DNA from: a virus
Lineage: Duplodnaviria; Caudoviricetes
Virus record (IMG/VR): IMGVR_UViG_3300013121_000019
Location: 1 to 64,000 of that record
Strand: one strand, 5' to 3'
Length of the DNA: 64,000 nucleotides
The position numbers and the translations under genes were made by a program. Shown here one piece after another: positions 3,396 to 39,486 of the stretch. Position 1 is the first letter of the stretch. Every line of letters starts with the position of its first letter. Under the pieces are notes generated by a model, which saw only the letters and a program-made list of their open reading frames with translations, had not been told where the DNA came from and did no database searches.

Positions 3396-3445
3396 GTTTT
3401 TGTGGTCCCACTTTAGCGGTATCAGTACCCCGGAGCCAAGTCACC

Positions 3446-3760
3446 ATGCCGATCGTCGAGATGGATCCTGAGCTCGCGTGGCGAGCGATCGAAGGCTACG
3501 AAAACGTCCTCACTCCTGCGGCCAACTCCCTTCGCGAGCGGTACGCCCAGTTCCACTGCAATCGCTGCGGCGGCAAGTACCAGGAAGAGATCGATCCGCG
3601 GCACGTGTTCCGTGATGGCACGCTCGTACCGCGTTCTCTCCTGCGTTGCACCTCATGCCGTCACCTGCTGGATCCGTTCACTGGGCTCACCATCGAAGTC
3701 GGCAACGTCGTCGAGGAGCCTACGCCACACGGCGGGTTACGGTTACCCCATCCGGGATGA
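3446..3760 (+). CDS. Zn-ribbon protein (104 aa)
   Basis: MPIVEMDPE... with CNRC and CTSC pairs; converges on and overlaps the end of the baseplate gene. Confidence 0.55.
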   Translation: MPIVEMDPELAWRAIEGYENVLTPAANSLRERYAQFHCNRCGGKYQEEIDPRHVFRDGTLVPRSLLRCTSCRHLLDPFTGLTIEVGNVVEEPTPHGGLRLPHPG

Positions 3761-6700
3761 ACGTCGCGAGCCGCCCGGTGCTGAGCTTGTTCTGTGAGCG
3801 CTCCAGCACGACGGAACGGTCCACCCCGAACACCACCGCGATGATCTCGATCGGGTTCTCGATCGAGACGGCACCACGGCGCTGCATCAACCTGATCAGC
3901 TCACTGACCTCGATGTAATCATCGGGCAGCAGCCCGTTGATGTAGTCGAGGATGTCGGGGCGCACGACCGACTCAGCAGATCCGCCCATGTAGGTCAGGG
4001 CGCACCGCACCATGTGGACGATGAGGTGGCGGGCCAGCGGGCTCGCATCGACGACACGTTCGAGTGACGCCGACAGGAAGTTCTGCGCATCGGCCACCGT
4101 CTGCGAGCGCCAGTAGATCACCTGCAGACCCTGGCCCAAGAGATGTGTGGCGTTCTCAGGATCGTCGGATGTACCGACCTCTAGGATCGTCGGGGACAGC
4201 GTCATCGTGACGTCTTCGGTTGTAGAGAACGTCAGGTTCTGGCTGCGGGTCGACAACCGGTACCCGTCGGACCGATACCCCGTGGCGGTCATCAGATTGC
4301 CCGCGGAGATGTTCCAGGTGTCGCCCGGTCCCTCCGACAGGAGCTCTACGTCGAACCAGTAGAGTCCGTTAGGAAGTAGGTTCTTCGCCATGTCGGTCGC
4401 TACGATGCGCTGCACACCAGGTCGAATCACTCGGAAGTGCTGGCGCGTTGCCGCGGTGAACGTCTCGCCACCACACGTCAGCGCCCCGGGGGCTACGGCG
4501 GTGATGGCGTAGCGGCCAACATTGGGGCACGGTGTTCCGGCCGTGTTGAGCGTGTCGGCCACGGCGCTGAACCCAAGGAGGGCATTGGCGCTACCGCTGG
4601 CGCGTACCACGATCGACACGTCACCCTCGAGCTCCAGGTGGTTGCCAACACCGAGCGTAGCGAGCGTTTTGCCGATGGCCTGATTGATCTGCTTGGCGAC
4701 AGCGGCACGGGTCACAGCGCCCACAGGGATCGACGGATCATCGCGCATGAACGTGATGGTCTTGTCGGAACTTCCAGCGATCGACAGCACGAGCGTCTTC
4801 AGGGCTAGCGACGGTACAGGGTCCGCCAGCCCAACGGATCCAACGATCGGCCCCGAGTCGATCGACAGGATGTCGCCGACTGCCACGAGCTTACTGATGA
4901 AGTCGATGGAGCTCGAGCTGAGCGTGTCGACGCCGGTGGTCACGCCATCCGACGGCGATGTGACGGACGGCGGACCCGGAATGCGTGTGTACTCGAGCGT
5001 CGGGTCGGGTCGGTAATGCAGGTCGCCGAGGTTCTCGTCGACGTACGTGAACGTCGCGGATGCATCGACCTCGAAAGTAGTGGGCTCCAGGAAGAAGAGT
5101 CGGCAGCTGCCGAGGGACGGAGCTCCGATCCGCACCTTGCGCCGCAACTCCGGCACGAAGTCACGGTCGGTCATCACGGCCTGGCTGACGCCAGAGTAGA
5201 CGCTGACGGCGCGACAGAAGCCGACCTGCCCGCCGTCCATGACTGCCACGACGTCCATGTCCTCGAGCGGGATCGTCAACCCGTTGGACCAGTTCGTGAT
5301 GCTGAGCGATCGAACATGTCGCGAGTCGAACGCAGCGGCTGCGCCGAACAGCTCAGTGACCGCGGTGCCACCGGTGACCCGTAGGTTGCGCCCCATGGCA
5401 CGAAGACCAAGACGCTCCTCAGCACCGTCAGGCACGATCACCGCGATGTTCTGCAAGATGTCCGCGGAGGACACCGCGTTGATCTGGCTCACGATGGACG
5501 ACAGCGAGATGGGCTCGCCGCCGACCAACGTGATGTGCATCGTCGTCAGCCCGTCGACCAGGATGTCCAGTGTGAGCCCCGCAGCGTTGTAGCCGCTGCC
5601 GGCCTGGCGGCCCACGATGCCGAGCAGTGCATCGGTGACCTCGGCCTTCACGCCGCGTGCGATGTTCGAGAACGCGGTAGAGCGCCCGTCCACCGGGCAC
5701 GCGTACGGCACAGTGGAGCCGACAGGCTGCCCGGTGGCGTCCAGCAGCTCCACGCTCTTCACGCGCAGCAGTGGGCGAACCACACCGCCGGAAGGATTGA
5801 GCTTGAAGATCGTGAAGTCTACGTGAGACGTGGTCGACTTGAACGGGCGGTCAACCACGACCTCCGTGAAGAAGGCACCGCCACCCAGCGACCTGACGGT
5901 GTAGTCCCCGGCGTCCGGGCCACGGTGCACCCTCAGGATGTCCTTGGCCGCCACACCGAACTCGGACATGTCCGTACCGCTCAGCGTCGTGACCGTTGCC
6001 GAGCCCTGAACCGTCGACAGGTCGGAGCCGCGCAGTCGAATGAACTTCGGCTCGACCAAATCGACATCCACCTCATCGGAGATGCTCCACATGAGGCCAG
6101 TCTCAAGTACGAAGGGCGCCGGATCGACCTCCACGTACGGGTGGTCGTCGGGCACCGACGGCTGCACAACCCGTAGGATGCGAAAGACGCCAGCCGCGAC
6201 ACCGGAGGGAATCGTGATGGAACGCCCCACGGAGCGCTCGAGCTCTAGGTAGTGCGCGTCGTCCTCCTCGTAGTTGGTGCCCAACGTGTAGTCATTGAGG
6301 TAGATGCGCGCAGGGCTCTCCCAGGTAGTGGCGCGGGCCCCGCTGAGCAGTGGGGTCTCGTCACTCAGCGTAGAGATCGTCAGCGAAGCCTCATCGGGCT
6401 CCGCGCCCTGGCAGTACACATCGTACGCACCGCCAATGTGCACCACATCGTCGTCCACATGAGTGAGGCCGAACTCGCCCTCGGGGAAGAGGATGCCGCC
6501 GGGGATGTCCGAGAGGGTGAGCTCGCTACGACGCAGCATCCAGTACAGCGGCACGACCACCGGCGAGGTGTCGAGCAGCACGCTGTCCACGACGTCCACC
6601 TCGACCGAAGGGGCACCGCCGTTGGGCACGACGCTGACGATCGACAGATCACGTACCTGAGGGCTAGTGGCGAATCCGCCAAACACCGTCAGGATGAACC

Positions 6701-32971: not shown

Positions 32972-33184
32972 TGCGAATGTCCGTGGGCCCCGCAGGGGGC
33001 TGGGCCCACACGTCTCAGGTCTGAGTACAAGACGAATGACGTGGTGCGGTGACGAGGCCGGCTCCCCTAGGGTGAGCCCTTCTTCACTAGCTACTGCAAA
33101 CCAGTGGCGATCGCGGAATAAGTACAGCGTAGAGGATTAGCCACTCTACAGACATCACGCACCTACCAAAGGACGTGCACGACG

Positions 33185-35257
33185 ATGAGTACCGACAACT
33201 TCCCGCAGTTCGCCAACATCGTGGCGCGATCGTTCCAGCACATGGTCAAAGACCCGGTCTTCGTGGCCAACATCGACGGCGACGCACTCTACCAGGCGTA
33301 CCTCGAGGCGTTTCCGGAGGGGACCAATCCCATCTTCAAGAAGGCCACGGAGCACGACTGCAGCTGCTGCCGGCACTTCATCAAGCGAGTCGGCACGGTG
33401 GTGACGATCGAGGGCCGTGAGGTCCGCACGATCTGGGACCACGCCACCCTGCAGGCTCCTGGTGTCTACGCCCACGTGGCAACCGTCCTGCGGAACCTCG
33501 TGCGTAGTGCTCGCATCCGCGACATCTTCCGCGTGGGTGCGCGAGAAACCCGGTTCGGGGCGAGGGTTTCGCGCTCCCTGGATCCCGAGACGCAACGGGC
33601 CATCACGTGGAACCACTTCTACACCGGGGAGATCCCCAGCAACCTGCGGACCGACCAGGTCGACACCGTGCGGGGCGACTACCGCACGACCGTGCAAGTC
33701 TTCGAGCGTGGTCTCGTCGAGCTCAAGCCCGACGCGATCGAGACCGTTCTCTCCCTCATCCAGGCCAACAACCTGTACCGGGGGGAAGAGCACAAGACGG
33801 CGGTCATGGGCTTCCAGAGGCTCCAGCGCGAGTTCAACGCCAAGAGCGCGGCCGACCGTAACCTCTTCGTGTGGGCGAACGCCAACAGCCCCGGTGCGCG
33901 GTTCCGCAACACCGTGATCGGCACGCTGGTGCAGGATCTCTCCGAGGGCATGGATCTCGAGGCGGCCGTCCGGTCCTTCGAGACCAAGGTAGCCCCGCAG
34001 AACTACAAGCGTACGACGGCGCTGATCACACCCATGATGGTGAAGAAGGCGATGGAGACGATCGAGTCCCTCGGTCTCGAGTCGGCTCTCGAGCGTCGCT
34101 TCGCGGTCATCGGCGACGTCTCGGTCAACGACGTCAAGTGGGTCGACGGCACGGTGAAGCCCCTGATGAAGGGCGGCATCGGCGACAGGCTGATGCAACA
34201 CGCCACCACGGGTCGCGTTTCTAGCAAGAGCGACGAGGAACGCGCCGAGGACATCAACATCGACGACTTCATGACGAAGGTCTTGCCGGAGACCCAGGGC
34301 ATGGAGATCCTGTTCAAGAACGAGCACGCAGGCAACCTGATGTCGCTCACGGCGCCCGTACACCCGGAACCCCGACAGCTCTTCCGATGGACCAACGACT
34401 TCGCCTGGTCGTACGGCGGGAACGTTGCCGACTCCATCAAGGAACGGGTCAAGAAGGCGGGAGGCCGGGTGACCGGCGTCCTGCGGGTCTCGCTCAGCTG
34501 GTTCAACTACGACGACCTGGACCTCCACATCGAGCAGCCGTCGGGCCGCGGTATGAACGCGGCGATCAACCGCATCTACTTCGGCAACAAGCACGGGTGG
34601 ACCGGCGGTACCCTCGACGTCGACATGAACGCGGGTCACGGGGCCACCCGTGAGCCGGTGGAGAACGTCATCTGGCCCGGCAAGATCCCCGATGGGTCTT
34701 ACAAGGTCGTGGTCAACAACTACTGCTTCCGCGAGTCCAGCAACCCTGGCTTCGTCATCGAGGTCGAGAACGGCGGCAAGGTCTCGCACTTCTCGTACAA
34801 CAAAAGCGTGAGGAGCGGGCAGGACATCCGCGTCTGCACGCTACACATGAAGGATGGCCTCATCGTCCAGGTCGACCCTGGTGACCCGGGCATCACCGCG
34901 TCCGCCATCTCGCAGGAGAAGTGGGGCCTCAAGACCGAGACCTACGCCAAGGTCACGGCCGTGATGTTGAGCCCCAACTACTGGGGCGATAACGCCGTCG
35001 GTAACAAGCACACGTTCTTCGTCCTCGAGGGAGCAAAGAGCGACGAGGACACTCGTGGGTTCTACAACGAGTTCCTCCACCCCCGCCTCGAGCAGCACCG
35101 CAAGGTGTTCGAGGTCATCGCCGACAAGACCAAGTGCCGTCCCACCGAGGGGCAGCTATCGGGACTCGGCTTCTCCTCCACCAAGAAGGAGACCTTCGTC
35201 GTCCGCGTCCAGCAGGGCAAGAAGCAGCGCCTGTTCAACGTGCACGTAGGCACCTGA
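33185..35257 (+). CDS. Conserved large-phage protein with DUF2135/YfaP-like domain
   Basis: 690 aa; N-terminal 'EHDCSCCRHF'; 'LRVSLSWFNYDDLDLH...LDVDMNAG...PVEN.IW'. Confidence 0.7.
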   Translation: MSTDNFPQFANIVARSFQHMVKDPVFVANIDGDALYQAYLEAFPEGTNPIFKKATEHDCSCCRHFIKRVGTVVTIEGREVRTIWDHATLQAPGVYAHVATVLRNLVRSARIRDIFRVGARETRFGARVSRSLDPETQRAITWNHFYTGEIPSNLRTDQVDTVRGDYRTTVQVFERGLVELKPDAIETVLSLIQANNLYRGEEHKTAVMGFQRLQREFNAKSAADRNLFVWANANSPGARFRNTVIGTLVQDLSEGMDLEAAVRSFETKVAPQNYKRTTALITPMMVKKAMETIESLGLESALERRFAVIGDVSVNDVKWVDGTVKPLMKGGIGDRLMQHATTGRVSSKSDEERAEDINIDDFMTKVLPETQGMEILFKNEHAGNLMSLTAPVHPEPRQLFRWTNDFAWSYGGNVADSIKERVKKAGGRVTGVLRVSLSWFNYDDLDLHIEQPSGRGMNAAINRIYFGNKHGWTGGTLDVDMNAGHGATREPVENVIWPGKIPDGSYKVVVNNYCFRESSNPGFVIEVENGGKVSHFSYNKSVRSGQDIRVCTLHMKDGLIVQVDPGDPGITASAISQEKWGLKTETYAKVTAVMLSPNYWGDNAVGNKHTFFVLEGAKSDEDTRGFYNEFLHPRLEQHRKVFEVIADKTKCRPTEGQLSGLGFSSTKKETFVVRVQQGKKQRLFNVHVGT

Positions 35258-35850: not shown

Positions 35851-36666
35851 ATGATGGCCGACATCAGCTTACTTGTTAGCGACGACGACGCAACGAACGC
35901 CAAACCCTGGCGACAACATGACCTAACCGGACAGGTCATTCACGAAGTGGTGGTGGAGGCATGCATCGCCACCACGATAGACAAGCAGAAGAAGTGGAGA
36001 GTTCGCTGTCTGTCTTGTGGAGGTGCGTTCGCGCGTACGACCTACGAGATCAATCAGTACCGACGTGACCGCACCACGTTTTCTTGTCGGACGTGCTTCG
36101 AGGAGCTTCGCGACGGCACGCGCAGTGAGCGTCGAAGCTACTGGCACATGCGCCTGAAGCAGTTCTGGGACCAGTACGGCATCCTGTACGGTGCCAGCTA
36201 CCATCACGCAGAGATCGAAGCCCTACGTGAGGCGTTCTTCGCCGACGAGGGACCGCCGATGGAGCATTTGCGACCGGAAGACCTGACGGTGGCAGTAGCT
36301 GGACGGAAACAGCCACACACTGCCCGTATTCAGAACGTCTTCGAGCTGTACCCGGTGAGGGCCGGCAAATCCGAGGCGTTCAATTGCGAGTACTGTAGCC
36401 GACTGCACACGAAGGGGTTCGCGTGCACGTGCTGCCGCACGGTGGTGTGCTGCGCGTGCGTGGAAAACGAAACGCATGCCTGCGAGGGCAGCGGGCACGA
36501 GCACGACGAGTCCGCTGGATGGGTGACCGATCGGCACGGGCAGCTGGTATACGACTGGTACGCCGGTAGTCAGCCGGAGTTCCTCAAGCGCATCGCGCAG
36601 TCCTGCCTGCTCTCCAAGGTCAAGGTGACCAAAGACGGTGGGCTGGCGACATTCCGACGAGCATAA
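35851..36666 (+). CDS. Multi-Zn-finger protein
   Basis: Several CxxC pairs; N-terminal 'DLTGQ...WRVRC..CG' resembles HNH-associated repeats; AAGGAGG RBS. Confidence 0.6.
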   Translation: MMADISLLVSDDDATNAKPWRQHDLTGQVIHEVVVEACIATTIDKQKKWRVRCLSCGGAFARTTYEINQYRRDRTTFSCRTCFEELRDGTRSERRSYWHMRLKQFWDQYGILYGASYHHAEIEALREAFFADEGPPMEHLRPEDLTVAVAGRKQPHTARIQNVFELYPVRAGKSEAFNCEYCSRLHTKGFACTCCRTVVCCACVENETHACEGSGHEHDESAGWVTDRHGQLVYDWYAGSQPEFLKRIAQSCLLSKVKVTKDGGLATFRRA

Positions 36667-36714
36667 GCGGTGAAACGTGCATCCCGGCGTGGGGCGCGCG
36701 TTTCACTAGGTACT

Positions 36715-36740
36715 ACAAATCGCGCTAAACAACGGAATAA
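36715..36740 (+). promoter_or_regulatory. Promoter-like motif of the RAMP/array unit
   Basis: ACAAA-N14-GGAATAA directly after a hairpin ending TTTCACTAGGTAC; GAGGAGG RBS follows. Confidence 0.6.
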
Positions 36741-36762
36741 GCACTATGAGGAGGTTACCTTC

Positions 36763-37419
36763 ATGACCGATAAGAAGACCGCAGATGATGCTGGTTCCGA
36801 GGCCAAGGGCCAGATCCCGCCGCCGAAGTTCGCGATCGCCGAGTTCATCCTGACCGGGAATGCCCCGTACGTCAGCAACAAGTTCTCCCAGGAGGCCCGC
36901 GAGATGATGCGGGCCAAGCAGGCAGCCGGCTCCACGGCTCGCAAGGGCGCCAAGCGCGAGCCCAAGGACTTCGACAAGTGCTTCAAGCAGTCGATGCACG
37001 CGACCGAGGACGGCAAGTACGGCGTGCCGGCGTCGTGCTTCAGGCAGGCCCTCGTCAGCGCTTGCCGCATCGTCGGGTTCAAGATGACGCTGGCGAAGCT
37101 CGCGCTGTTCGTGGTCGCCGACGGCATCGACGCGGACGACGCCAGCCCACTGGTGTTGTTCACGAAGGGGGAACCGCAGCACTTCGAGAGCGCCACCCGC
37201 AACGAGACCGGCGTGGCCGACATCCGCGCGCGTGGCAAGTGGGATACCGGATGGCAGATCCGTCTGCGCGTCCGGTACGACTCCGACATGTTCACGAAGT
37301 CCGATGTCACCAACCTGCTGGCGCGCGTCGGCGTGCAGGTCGGGATCGGCGCCGGAAGACCCGACTCCAAGACCTCCTGCGGTCAGGGATGGGGTACGTT
37401 CGATATCGAGGCGGTCTAG
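36763..37419 (+). CDS. Solitary Cas7/RAMP-like RNA-binding protein (218 aa)
   Basis: RAMP hallmarks in order: 'FILTGNAPY' beta1, 'YGVPASCFRQAL' (cf. IPGSSLKGAL), thumb-like hairpin 'RNETGVADIRAR', and C-terminal G-rich loop 'GIGAGRP...GQGWGTF'. Confidence 0.75.
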   Translation: MTDKKTADDAGSEAKGQIPPPKFAIAEFILTGNAPYVSNKFSQEAREMMRAKQAAGSTARKGAKREPKDFDKCFKQSMHATEDGKYGVPASCFRQALVSACRIVGFKMTLAKLALFVVADGIDADDASPLVLFTKGEPQHFESATRNETGVADIRARGKWDTGWQIRLRVRYDSDMFTKSDVTNLLARVGVQVGIGAGRPDSKTSCGQGWGTFDIEAV

Positions 37420-37420
37420 C

Positions 37421-38002
37421 GGCCAAGCTGGCTGAGCTAAGAATGGTGTGGCCCAGCATGCCTGAGCATGGCGAAGCGGGCAGGGCGTAGCTAGGAATGG
37501 CTAGTCAACGCACAGCGGGCATGGCATGGCTTGGCAACGCCAAGCAAGGCCAAGCAGGCTAGGTGGAGCAATCACGGGCTTGGATTGGCGAATCGTGGCA
37601 AAGCAGAGCGAGTCCAAGCAGGCTCAGCGCGGCGTGGCTTGGTCAGGCCAGGCAGGCGTGGCAGTGGAGGTGGAGCATGGAATAGACGAGTTCGGTCAGG
37701 CAACGCAGAGCCGGCGTGGCATGGCACCGCTGCGAGCAGCTCGGTAAAGCAAAGCCGGCGAGGCTTAGCTACACCAGGAAGGACAAGGCAAAGCAGGCGT
37801 GGCGGAGCGGAGCGGGGTGTGGCAAAGATGCGCGAAGCAGCGCAGGCCGCGCTGGGCATGGCAACACCGAGTAAGGAGGTGAATGGCCAGGCAGGCTGAG
37901 CAAGGTGTGGCGAGGCGGCGCAACGCGCAGCAGAGCTGAGCAGCACCATGCTGGCGTAGCTGAGCTTGGCGTCGCCCGGCGCGACGGGGCTTAGTGAAGC
38001 CA
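37421..38002 (+). ncRNA. Pentamer (RGY-NN) array, putative guide-RNA precursor of ~12 units
   Basis: Hand parse gives 106 pentamers plus 13 tetramers = 582 nt exactly; about 77/106 pentamers start with RGY. It fills the gap between the RAMP stop and the terminator. Confidence 0.8.
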
Positions 38003-38046
38003 GGAACGAACACCCTCTTCGGAGAGTGTTCGTTCCTTTTAGCTAC
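38002..38046 (+). terminator. Intrinsic terminator closing the RAMP/array transcript
   Basis: AGGAACGAACACCCTC-TTCG-GAGAGTGTTCGTTCCT then TTTAGCTA. Confidence 0.85.
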
Positions 38047-38408
38047 TACTTCACTCGCGGATCGACCTTCGGAACGTGGCCAGACGGGTTGGCCTTCGGG
38101 ACGTCGGCCCGCGGATCCGCCTTGGCGACCAGCGTCTTGGCGGCCTTCTCGGCAGAAGGGTCTTTGGGCTCGCGCTTCTTCCGCGGGGCACCCGACAGCT
38201 CCGGCGTCGCCTTGTCCCGCTTCCGACGGAGCTCATCGATCAGCGTGTTGACCTGCTGACGGCAGGCCCCGCAGAGATCCTGGAACTCGAACGTCAGCGG
38301 CCACTTGACCTCGAGGGCAGGTCTGTGGGCGATCTGCTCTACCTTCGGCTGGTACTCGACGCGGGGGCACCGGTCGCACTGGATCTTGACGACCTCTTCA
38401 CGCGCCAC
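38046..38408 (-). CDS. Zn-ribbon protein with basic tail (Lsr2-N-like)
   Basis: 'CDRC...QDLCGAC' followed by a Lys/Pro-rich tail. Confidence 0.5.
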   Translation of the reverse strand: MAREEVVKIQCDRCPRVEYQPKVEQIAHRPALEVKWPLTFEFQDLCGACRQQVNTLIDELRRKRDKATPELSGAPRKKREPKDPSAEKAAKTLVAKADPRADVPKANPSGHVPKVDPRVK

Positions 38409-38878: not shown

Positions 38879-39298
38879 TCAGGCGGCCATCTTGGCATCT
38901 CTTCCCATCACGATACCGTCGACGCTGCCGTGGTAGTAGGCGGGTAGCATCCCCATCGGAAGGAAACCGAAACGACGGTACAGCGCCTTCGCTGGCTCGT
39001 TGTCGGCGCGGACCATCAGGGTCTGGAACCGCACGGGTGACCGCTCGATGACCGCGCGCAGTAGATCCTCGCCGAGCCCCCGACGCCTGGCCGACTCCAG
39101 GACGCCGATGCGGACGAGCTCGTCGTAAGCCTCCTGGCGGTGCACCAGGCAGTAGCCCTGGCGGTCATCTGTCATGAGGCCGAAGCCGAGCTCGCGCACC
39201 CTGCTGACCGCCTCGAAGGACCAGCGGTCCCGCTCGAACACCTGGCAGTCCAGCCGGTGCACAGCCAACACATCGAGGTCGGTCATCATATCGATCAC
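38879..39298 (-). CDS. GNAT acetyltransferase, RimI-like
   Basis: 'IGV...RRRGLGEDLL', 'LMVRADNEPAKALYRRFGF', 'YY....DG..M'. Confidence 0.85.
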   Translation of the reverse strand: MIDMMTDLDVLAVHRLDCQVFERDRWSFEAVSRVRELGFGLMTDDRQGYCLVHRQEAYDELVRIGVLESARRRGLGEDLLRAVIERSPVRFQTLMVRADNEPAKALYRRFGFLPMGMLPAYYHGSVDGIVMGRDAKMAA

Positions 39299-39486
39299 AG
39301 CGTGGAACTCCCGAATACGCAGCCGCAGCCGCACTTGTACTCCGACGTCCCGTTGGTCTTCTTGACCTCGGAGACGAACTGGCTCTTGCACTTCGGGCAG
39401 GCCATCTTGCGGGGCCCGCCCTTGGCGCCCTGGTGAACTACGGTGGACTGCTGACCGGCCGGGATGATCGTTACCTTACGCGACAT
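39295..39486 (-). CDS. Small Zn-ribbon protein
   Basis: CPKC...CGCG; AAGGAGG RBS. Confidence 0.6.
   Translation of the reverse strand: MSRKVTIIPAGQQSTVVHQGAKGGPRKMACPKCKSQFVSEVKKTNGTSEYKCGCGCVFGSSTL

What the first reader, a model, noticed from the sequence alone, without database searches (positions are those of the whole stretch)
36715..38046. Self-contained Cas7/RAMP-like gene plus pentamer-coded RNA array: candidate non-CRISPR RNA-guided system
Seen: one transcription unit made of a promoter motif, a 218-aa protein, a 582-nt periodic non-coding tract starting 2 nt after its stop codon, and a strong terminator. No other cas genes and no repeat-spacer CRISPR array are present in the window. 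Established: the protein has RAMP/Cas7 hallmarks (N-terminal beta strand, 'VPASCFRQAL', thumb hairpin, C-terminal G-rich loop), and Cas7 proteins polymerise on RNA with a fixed nucleotide step per subunit. Inference: each protomer binds one constant RGY triplet and displays the variable NN, forming a programmable nuclease-free filament that recognises nucleic acid, for example to silence competing phages or host defence genes. I recall recent reports of phage RAMP + GGY/NN arrays (VIPR) that this may belong to. I cannot verify that here, so novelty needs checking.
Basis: partly seen in the sequence, partly recalled or inferred. Interest (0 to 1): 0.97.

Follow-up and report, generated by a model that had tools for sequence, protein, structure and literature searches.

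The report
Phage VIPR system with staggered guides
This uncultured 132-kb phage carries a real VIPR system, the CRISPR-related RNA-guided DNA silencer first described in 2026 preprints: a small Cas7-like protein gene followed by about 12-13 guide RNAs written in five-base units. It is a good new example of a published kind, and its targets were not found.

Summary
A 218-aa gene (36763-37419) is followed at once by the only 5-nt-periodic tract in the 132-kb phage genome (37419-38005). The tract ends in a strong hairpin with a short U run.

With an alignment the protein folds confidently as a single-RRM RAMP (Z 12.3-11 to Cmr4, Csm3 and gRAMP). A family profile has one significant PDB hit, the SUSP1 Vipr protein (E 3.9e-5; hhalign 94%).

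81 of 82 related loci carry a pentamer array next to the gene. Nucleotide similarity to relatives stops near the stop codon, as expected for a conserved protein with variable guides.

The array is 13 in-register runs (12 of 7-13 units, one of 3) joined by -1 register junctions (RGC-N-GGC). This matches the published "staggered" vrRNA arrays.

VIPR was published in April 2026, and this scan has already noted it in at least 89 other genomes. I therefore class it as a new member of a known kind.

Local features:
- There is no vap accessory gene anywhere in the genome.
- The repeat is relaxed to RGY (36% A at position 1). This goes with Ala in place of the G-loop acidic residue that reads G1 in SUSP1.
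- The first unit of every guide stays GGC.

No targets were found; all hits were at chance level.

The parts
36707..36751 (+). promoter-like bipartite motif (TAGSTACTRC-N17-GGAATAAG, then N6-GAGG)
   Evidence: The same 35-nt bipartite motif occurs only twice in 132 kb, here and at 33088 upstream of the 690-aa gene. Its 3' half is a variant of GGYATAAS-N6-GAAG, which has 8 other copies in the genome. No sigma-70 match. Function is inferred.
36748..36754 (+). ribosome-binding site GAGGAGG
   Evidence: Read from the sequence; 8 nt before the ATG.
36763..37419 (+). vipr gene: 218-aa single-RRM RAMP (P0001)
   Evidence: AF2 with alignment pLDDT 87.9, pTM 0.82. Z 12.3/11.9/11.1 to Cmr, Csm3 and gRAMP. 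Foldseek top hits are all Cas7-type RAMPs. Profile A2 hits only SUSP1 Vipr 36pp at E 3.9e-5. hhalign 94.4% over 174 columns. dN/dS about 0.28-0.30 against relatives.
37419..38005 (+). vrRNA array: about 120 NN-RGY pentamers in 13 staggered runs
   Evidence: Periodicity. Segmentation. Runs start at 37428, 37477, 37516, 37555, 37619, 37653, 37667, 37711, 37755, 37794, 37843, 37892 and 37951, with 10, 8, 8, 13, 7, 3, 9, 9, 8, 10, 10, 12 and 11 units. The array is not alignable with relatives although the gene is 84% identical.
37428..37432 (+). first of 13 junction/start units: the last C of one run, one N, then GGC (GGT at one junction). The other 12 run starts (first-unit coordinates) are those listed for the array part
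   Evidence: Twelve of the 13 runs open with C-N-GGC; the 37667 run opens G-A-GGT, following the atypical 3-unit run. Relatives have 613 four-nt junctions and none of 6 or 7 nt. Junction consensus GGC-A-GGC over 328 junctions. In the window's clade the first unit has G at position 1 in 97% of 63 runs, against 57% inside runs.
38002..38040 (+). intrinsic terminator: 12+3-bp hairpin with UUCG loop, then U run
   Evidence: -29.7 kcal/mol, z -4.65. It overlaps the last, imperfect unit of the array.

Best explanation
This is a phage-encoded VIPR system of the staggered-array kind. One transcript from the phage promoter-like motif carries vipr and then the guide array, and ends at the hairpin terminator.

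Vipr protomers bind the RNA one per 5 nt. The thumb arginine (R157, matching SUSP1 R138) and the G-loop arginine (R199, matching R179) hold the flipped-out RGY bases. The two variable bases of each unit are left free to pair.

Each in-register run of 7-13 units would act as one guide. It would read double-stranded DNA with the published 2-paired/1-skipped code and block transcription without cutting. The -1 junctions (RGC-N-GGC) break the 5-nt register and so separate neighbouring guides. The first unit of each guide is always GGC and may be the start or processing signal.

Shown here: fold, homology, array anatomy, family-wide linkage of gene and array, variable guides and purifying selection. 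Taken from the SUSP1 work and only inferred here: filament formation, DNA targeting, the skip rule and silencing. Pure inference: the role of the junction, and the targets (most likely rival phages or other mobile elements in the same host).
For: - Fold and homology. Donkeykong gp49 bridges the alignment: 34% identical to P0001 with a SUSP1-type G-loop GVGDWRP.
- Gene-array linkage: 81 of 82 relatives have a pentamer array next to vipr. The architectures are listed.
- Variable guides: nucleotide similarity to L084 (84%) ends near the stop codon.
- Staggered junctions: matching the fig. S18 legend of 10.64898/2026.04.26.720920.
- Orientation: GGY is on the + strand, and the terminator follows on the + strand.
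- No self-targeting, as the paper reports for its systems.
- Published mechanism.
- Gene under constraint: dN/dS about 0.3.
Against: - No target was found: eight of nine decoded exact-pattern scans of viral, metagenome and genome collections gave nothing or chance-level hits, and the single hit of the ninth (L093) was not followed up. The skip rule is therefore unverified for this clade.
- Two SUSP1 contact residues are not conserved: D177 is Ala197 and W178 is Gly198 here.
- Only about 45% of units are canonical GGY.
- The vap-like gene present in about 75 of 82 relatives is absent from the whole genome.
- There are no expression or binding data.
Confidence: 0.9

Rival explanations
1. The locus is a decaying, inactive VIPR remnant. 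The accessory gene has been lost and the repeat motif is eroding (AGC, CGC, GGA in place of GGY).
For: Only about 45% of units are GGY. No vap homologue exists in 132 kb. One run has only 3 units. No targets were found.
Against: - The closest relatives (L084 84%, L085, L001) share the vap-less layout and AGY-rich repeats, and carry even larger arrays of about 1-2 kb.
- The gene is intact and under purifying selection.
- Deviations are patterned rather than random: the first unit is always GGC, and A is concentrated at the last unit.
- Promoter-like motif, RBS and terminator are all intact.
- The paper states that Vipr plus one vrRNA suffices, and that Vap1 only enhances.
Confidence: 0.06
2. 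The protein-RNA filament is real, but in this clade it acts on RNA or serves another purpose (for example regulating the phage's own or host transcripts), not silencing of double-stranded DNA with the 1-nt-skip code.
For: The nearest structural neighbours are RNA-targeting type III/VII Cas7 proteins. The G-loop differs from SUSP1 at two contact positions. No DNA target was found under the 1-nt skip rule, and a small local test showed no excess for skip 1 over skips 0, 2 and 3.
Against: All seven published VIPR types are described as built on the same recognition code. There are no matches in the phage's own genome under any skip rule. The local test set was far too small to detect targets.
Confidence: 0.05
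3. The periodic tract is a protein-coding repeat or a plain satellite, unrelated to the gene upstream.
For: Several ORFs of 70-125 aa can be drawn across it on both strands. In Mycobacterium phage Donkeykong the equivalent tract is annotated as a gene.
Against: A 5-nt period with regular -1 slips cannot keep a reading frame. Spurious ORFs are expected at 62% GC. The tract is tied to vipr in 81 of 82 loci, lying upstream or downstream or after the accessory gene. Its constant positions are conserved while its other positions are not.
Confidence: 0.01

Closest known systems
VIPR systems with staggered vrRNA arrays (bioRxiv 10.64898/2026.04.26.720920, main text and fig. S18 legend)
   Same: Phage-borne lone Vipr RAMP. 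Adjacent non-coding array of NN + GGY-type pentamers. Neighbouring guides overlap by 1 nt, so the register slips by -1. No CRISPR array or cas genes.
   Different: No vap gene. Repeat position 1 is relaxed to A or G. I could not assign the type number (I-VII), because the supplementary tables are not held.
Type II VIPR of Escherichia phage SUSP1 (Vipr-vrRNA, PDB 36pp; 10.64898/2026.04.26.720927)
   Same: Homologous protein (hhalign 94%, full length). Thumb Arg and G-loop Arg-Pro are conserved. One protomer per 5-nt unit is expected.
   Different: Only remote sequence similarity. SUSP1 vrRNAs are separate units of about 100 nt with a 3' pseudoknot tail and strict GGY, and the locus has vap1. 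Here there are no tails, the guides abut, D177 is Ala and W178 is Gly.
CRISPR Cas7-family RAMPs (Csm3, Cmr4, type VII Cas7, gRAMP domains)
   Same: Same fold: RRM core, thumb hairpin and G-rich loop. Z 10-12, Foldseek E about 1e-5.
   Different: No repeat-spacer array, no other cas genes, a 5-nt rather than 6-nt step, and a guide encoded discontinuously. About 10-16% identity.
Homologues in cultured phages: Cyanophage Cy-LDV1 g34 (54%) and Cluster F mycobacteriophages such as Donkeykong gp49 (34%)
   Same: vipr homologue with flanking pentamer arrays.
   Different: Those loci have the vap-like gene (g33, gp50) and near-strict GGY. They sit beside the immunity/excision region of temperate phages.

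Membership tests
VIPR system | Vipr protein: small single-RRM RAMP with thumb and G-loop, homologous to described Vipr | tested here: met
   Model pLDDT 87.9. RAMP hits at Z up to 12.3. The only significant PDB sequence hit of the family profile is SUSP1 Vipr, E 3.9e-5. hhalign 94.4% over 174 columns.
VIPR system | Adjacent non-coding tandem array of 5-nt units, a constant GGY-type triplet alternating with variable NN | tested here: met
   The constant triplet is GGC 35, AGC 31, CGC 9 and GGT 8 of about 105 five-nt units counted, so the motif is RGY rather than strict GGY.
VIPR system | Gene-array linkage conserved across homologues, with variable NN | tested here: met
   81 of 82 loci. Nucleotide similarity ends near the stop codon.
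VIPR system | No CRISPR repeat-spacer array or cas operon; viral genome | tested here: met
   No 20-mer occurs three or more times within 600 nt anywhere in 132 kb. The tools treat the record as a virus. Neighbours hit PHROGs. Neighbours give no PADLOC or NCBIfam hit. Not every gene of the genome was screened for cas.
VIPR system | vap accessory gene next to vipr (typical, not obligatory) | tested here: not met
   An HMM of the clade's roughly 160-aa partner gene finds nothing in the six-frame translation of the genome at E<=10. The partner is present in about 75 of 82 relatives.
VIPR system | Conservation of SUSP1 RNA-contact residues (H17, R138, D177, W178, R179) | tested here: inconclusive
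   R138 aligns with R157 and R179 with R199, both invariant in alignment A1 and >=90% conserved in the broader A2. H17 aligns with N39, D177 with A197 and W178 with G198. The mapping rests on sequence alignment only, because 36pp is not in the fold libraries.
VIPR system | vrRNAs expressed and co-purifying with Vipr | not testable with these tools
   Needs small-RNA sequencing and a pull-down.
VIPR system | Targets matching the NN string under the 1-nt skip rule | tested here: inconclusive
   Exact-pattern scans only. Viral scans: 0, 0, 0, 0, 0 and 1 hit. Metagenome scans: 0 and 3 hits. Genome scan: 7 hits. The hits examined do not extend into flanking units and share nothing outside the pattern; the single viral hit (L093) was not followed up. 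Mismatch-tolerant searches of large collections were not possible.
Staggered vrRNA array subtype | Adjacent guides overlap by 1 nt, so the register shifts by -1 at each boundary | tested here: met
   13 junctions in the window, all of the 4-nt kind. 613 four-nt against 0 six- or seven-nt junctions in relatives, with equal penalties.
CRISPR-Cas class 1 effector (Cas7) | Cas7 encoded with other cas genes and a repeat-spacer array; 6-nt step on the crRNA | tested here: not met
   No array, no cas neighbours and a 5-nt period. Only the fold is shared.

The most novel reading that the evidence does not exclude
In this subclade repeat position 1 carries punctuation. Vipr proteins whose G-loop has Ala in place of the acidic residue (SUSP1 D177, which reads G1) tolerate A or G inside a guide. 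The first unit after each -1 junction nevertheless stays GGC: 97% of 63 guides in the window's clade, and in L055 every guide is one GGC followed by an almost pure run of NN-AGC units. This would mean the guide-start unit is recognised separately, as a nucleation or processing signal, from the elongation units. A single G-loop residue would then set repeat specificity.
Probability: 0.35. Interest if true: 0.5.

Novelty: new member of a known kind. Interest (0 to 1): 0.3.

Why it matters
In itself the locus is one more VIPR system in an uncultured high-GC phage, and this scan has already noted the class in at least 89 other genomes.

It is useful as a clean minimal example: one protein, one array, its own promoter-like motif and terminator, and no accessory gene.

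It also belongs to a natural variant set, Ala against Glu/Asp in the G-loop with AGY-rich against strict GGY repeats. That set points to the residue setting repeat specificity, and to a distinct GGC start unit in staggered arrays. Both can be tested directly by mutagenesis, and both bear on how to engineer multiplexed VIPR arrays.

Tried and rejected
- **Single-sequence AF2 model.** It was useless (pLDDT 37.8). The alignment-based model was used instead.
- **Family libraries.** Pfam, NCBIfam and PADLOC gave nothing for the protein. PHROGs gave only phrog_4652, of unknown function.
- **Rfam.** No family hit, and no hammerhead, in 36400-38400. This is therefore not the ribozyme-interspersed array type.
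- **Nucleotide search of phage records.** No match.
- **Self-targets and cross-targets.** Window guides against the 132-kb genome, 514 relatives' guides against this genome, and 372 guides against 764 kb of loci all stayed at background for every skip rule.
- **tRNA-3'-half lead.** The seven genome hits have no tRNA or Rfam match at the site and no similarity outside the pattern. The implied T-stem would also mispair. Rejected.
- **Metagenome hits of the 13-unit guide.** L094 and L096 are the same sequence, and L095 is separate. L094 and L096 fall in an ORF open across the displayed stretch with the skip at the wobble position. They do not extend into flanking units (21 of 26), appear AT-rich by eye, and lie in a 79-aa ORF. 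Judged to be chance.
- **Upstream 271-aa ORF (35851-36666) as an accessory gene.** It has no family or PDB hit, is not conserved beside vipr in relatives, and is separated from vipr by an inverted repeat and the promoter-like motif.
- **Phylogenetic correction of the Ala/AGY covariation.** Only 1 independent contrast sits on supported branches, and 5 on the best tree. The naive p of 2e-5 cannot be read as evidence of repeated co-evolution.
- **VIPR type assignment (I-VII).** Not possible, because no supplementary files are held.

Full report
**What is there.** The window belongs to a 132,374-bp, 62% GC single-contig virus record. At 36763-37419 on the + strand lies a 218-aa ORF with a GAGGAGG ribosome-binding site. 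From the stop codon to about 38005 the sequence has a 5-nt rhythm. Lag-5 autocorrelation is 0.449, and lags 10, 15 and 20 are also raised, whereas the ORF shows the usual lag-3 signal. A sliding-window scan finds no other such region in the window or in the genome. The tract ends in a hairpin at 38002-38037 (-29.7 kcal/mol, z -4.65) followed by Us.

There is no sigma-70-like promoter. However, 36734-36751 is a variant of a motif, GGYATAAS-N6-GAAG, with eight other copies in the genome; where a start codon is visible downstream, the motif lies just upstream of it. A longer bipartite motif is shared only with the region upstream of the gene at 33185.

**The protein.** Pfam, NCBIfam and PADLOC give nothing, and PHROGs gives only an unannotated family. 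The family is large: 1,220 proteins in one search and 2,072 cluster representatives in another, almost all from metagenomes.

With a 50-sequence alignment, AlphaFold gives pLDDT 87.9 and pTM 0.82. Foldseek against the PDB returns only Cas7-type RAMPs at the top (E about 1e-5). The Foldseek-independent search gives Z 12.3 (Cmr-beta subunit), 11.9 and 11.1 (Csm3) and 11.1 (gRAMP), and the first 25 rows are all CRISPR RAMPs.

A profile of 150 diverse family members has exactly one significant PDB sequence hit, the "SUSP1 Vipr protein" 36pp (E 3.9e-5). hhalign against the SUSP1-type protein of phage Alf5 gives 94.4% probability over 174 columns. The gene is under purifying selection against its three closest relatives (dN/dS 0.28-0.30).

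**The literature.** VIPR systems were described in April 2026 (10.64898/2026.04.26.720920). They consist of a phage-borne ancestral RAMP (Vipr) plus vrRNAs made of GGY/NN pentamers. The NN dinucleotides read double-stranded DNA while skipping one target base per unit, which causes transcriptional silencing of rival mobile elements. Seven types are defined, and array forms include "staggered arrays" in which neighbouring vrRNAs overlap by 1 nt.

Cryo-EM (10.64898/2026.04.26.720927) shows one protomer per repeat. G1 is read by H17 and D177, G2 by R138 and W178, and Y3 by R179 of the next protomer. Two later preprints extend the biology and recover VIPR arrays from entropy periodicity, including non-canonical triplets.

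**Family-wide linkage.** I examined 82 related loci: 80 from IMG/VR, plus Cyanophage Cy-LDV1 and Mycobacterium phage Donkeykong. Of these, 81 have a pentamer-periodic tract directly beside the vipr homologue. The tract lies downstream, upstream, or after a conserved gene of about 160 aa.

That partner gene is present in about 75 of 82 loci. An HMM of it finds nothing in the six-frame translation of this genome. The closest relatives (L084 at 84% nucleotide identity from a 140-kb contig, L085, L001) are likewise vap-less, with 1-2 kb of array. Nucleotide similarity between the window and its relatives ends near the vipr stop codon. This gives a conserved protein next to variable guides.

**Array anatomy.** A dynamic-programming segmentation that allowed 4-, 5- and 6-nt units (plus single-base skips) with equal penalties for 4 and 6 splits the tract into 13 in-register runs of 10, 8, 8, 13, 7, 3, 9, 9, 8, 10, 10, 12 and 11 units. 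Each boundary is a 4-nt unit: the last C of one run serves as the first N of the next (RGC-N-GGC).

In the relatives there are 613 four-nt junctions and none of 6 or 7 nt (that run also allowed 3- and 7-nt units). The consensus over 328 distinct junctions is GGC-A-GGC. This is what the fig. S18 legend describes. There is no 3' tail of the SUSP1 kind and no hammerhead or other Rfam match.

**Local peculiarities.**
- *Relaxed repeat.* Position 1 of the triplet is A in 36% of units, against a median of 5% in relatives.
- *G-loop substitution.* The residue aligned with SUSP1 D177 is Ala here (GIGAGRP). It is Glu in most of the family (GIGEGRP) and Asp in Donkeykong, whose motif GVGDWRP is identical to SUSP1.
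- *Covariation.* Ala-type loci have a median A fraction of 0.30 (n=12) against 0.05 for Glu-type loci (n=50, maximum 0.18). The Mann-Whitney p is 2e-5. The Ala loci need 6 changes on a weakly supported tree, and only one contrast sits on supported branches. The covariation is therefore suggestive, not proven.
- *Patterned relaxation.* In the window's clade the first unit of a guide has G in 97% of 63 guides, inner units have A in 34%, and the last unit has A in 62%. In L055 each guide is one GGC followed by 7-14 almost pure AGC units. This points to separate recognition of the start unit, which is an inference.

**Targets.** Decoding NN with one skipped base gives 12 usable guides of 14-26 specified bases. 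NN is 43% GC (N1 50%, N2 36%), below the phage's codon positions 1 and 2 (59% and 41-48%).
- There is no self-match above background under any skip rule.
- Guides of the relatives do not hit this genome.
- A pooled test on 764 kb shows no excess for skip 1.
- Exact-pattern scans of public collections gave nothing or chance-level hits. The hits examined (the seven genome and three metagenome hits) do not extend into flanking units, and the seven genome hits share nothing beyond the pattern; the single viral hit (L093) was not followed up.

**Verdict.** The finding is a new member of a published class, which this scan has already recorded many times. The residual interest lies in the vap-less minimal layout, the Ala/RGY variant and the GGC start-unit grammar.

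Noticed in passing
L082:3421-3840 (Mycobacterium phage Donkeykong, NC_051648.1 about 36847-37266): The annotated CDS gp48 (locus 3444-3830) coincides with a strict GGY pentamer array of about 7 staggered guides just upstream of the vipr homologue gp49. gp50 matches the clade's vap-like HMM. gp48 is probably a mis-called ORF. Twenty-seven mycobacteriophage records (Donkeykong-like, genus Cheoctovirus) carry the homologue.
   Followed up: partly
L055:3471-6190 (IMGVR_UViG_3300036828_001051): This locus has three arrays in which nearly every unit is NN-AGC. GGC appears almost only as the first unit after each -1 junction. It is the clearest case of a start-unit grammar.
   Followed up: partly
L084:2911-3990 and 4701-5740 (ENA contig of 140,694 bp): The closest relative of the window's vipr (84% nucleotide identity) is flanked by about 1 kb of array on each side, about 440 units in all. 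A LexA-like gene lies upstream and an integrase downstream.
   Followed up: partly
window 33088-33122 and 36707-36741: A 35-nt bipartite motif, TAGSTACTRC-N17-GGAATAAG preceded by TTCAC, occurs only at these two places in 132 kb. Both copies are upstream of + strand genes. TAGSTACTAC-like words are also over-represented: 9 in the window against 0.95 expected.
   Followed up: partly
genome positions 19214, 31830, 36734, 54886, 66272(-), 68416, 76170(-), 76615(-), 114540: GGNATAAS-N6-GARG occurs nine times, mostly a few bases before a GGAGG-type RBS. It is a candidate phage-specific promoter or 5'-UTR element. Earlier notes on this genome also mention a phage-encoded single-chain RNA polymerase, which I did not check.
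   Followed up: partly
window 36670-36706: An inverted repeat (8-bp arms GTGAAACG/CGTTTCAC, 21-nt loop) lies between the stop of the 271-aa ORF and the vipr promoter-like motif. It may be the terminator of the upstream unit.
   Followed up: no
L086-L092 (genome-contig hits of the last guide's pattern): All seven unrelated hits carry T at the first skipped position (GTTTG), although nothing else outside the pattern is conserved. This is unexplained. It may be compositional or a property of the scan.
   Followed up: partly
window 33185-35257 (+) and 38879-39391 (-): The 690-aa protein is a full-length match to phrog_1735 (E 1e-235). That family is widespread in large phages and is annotated inconsistently, as structural protein, RNA polymerase or ABC protein. 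A GNAT acetyltransferase lies downstream of the locus on the other strand.
   Followed up: no
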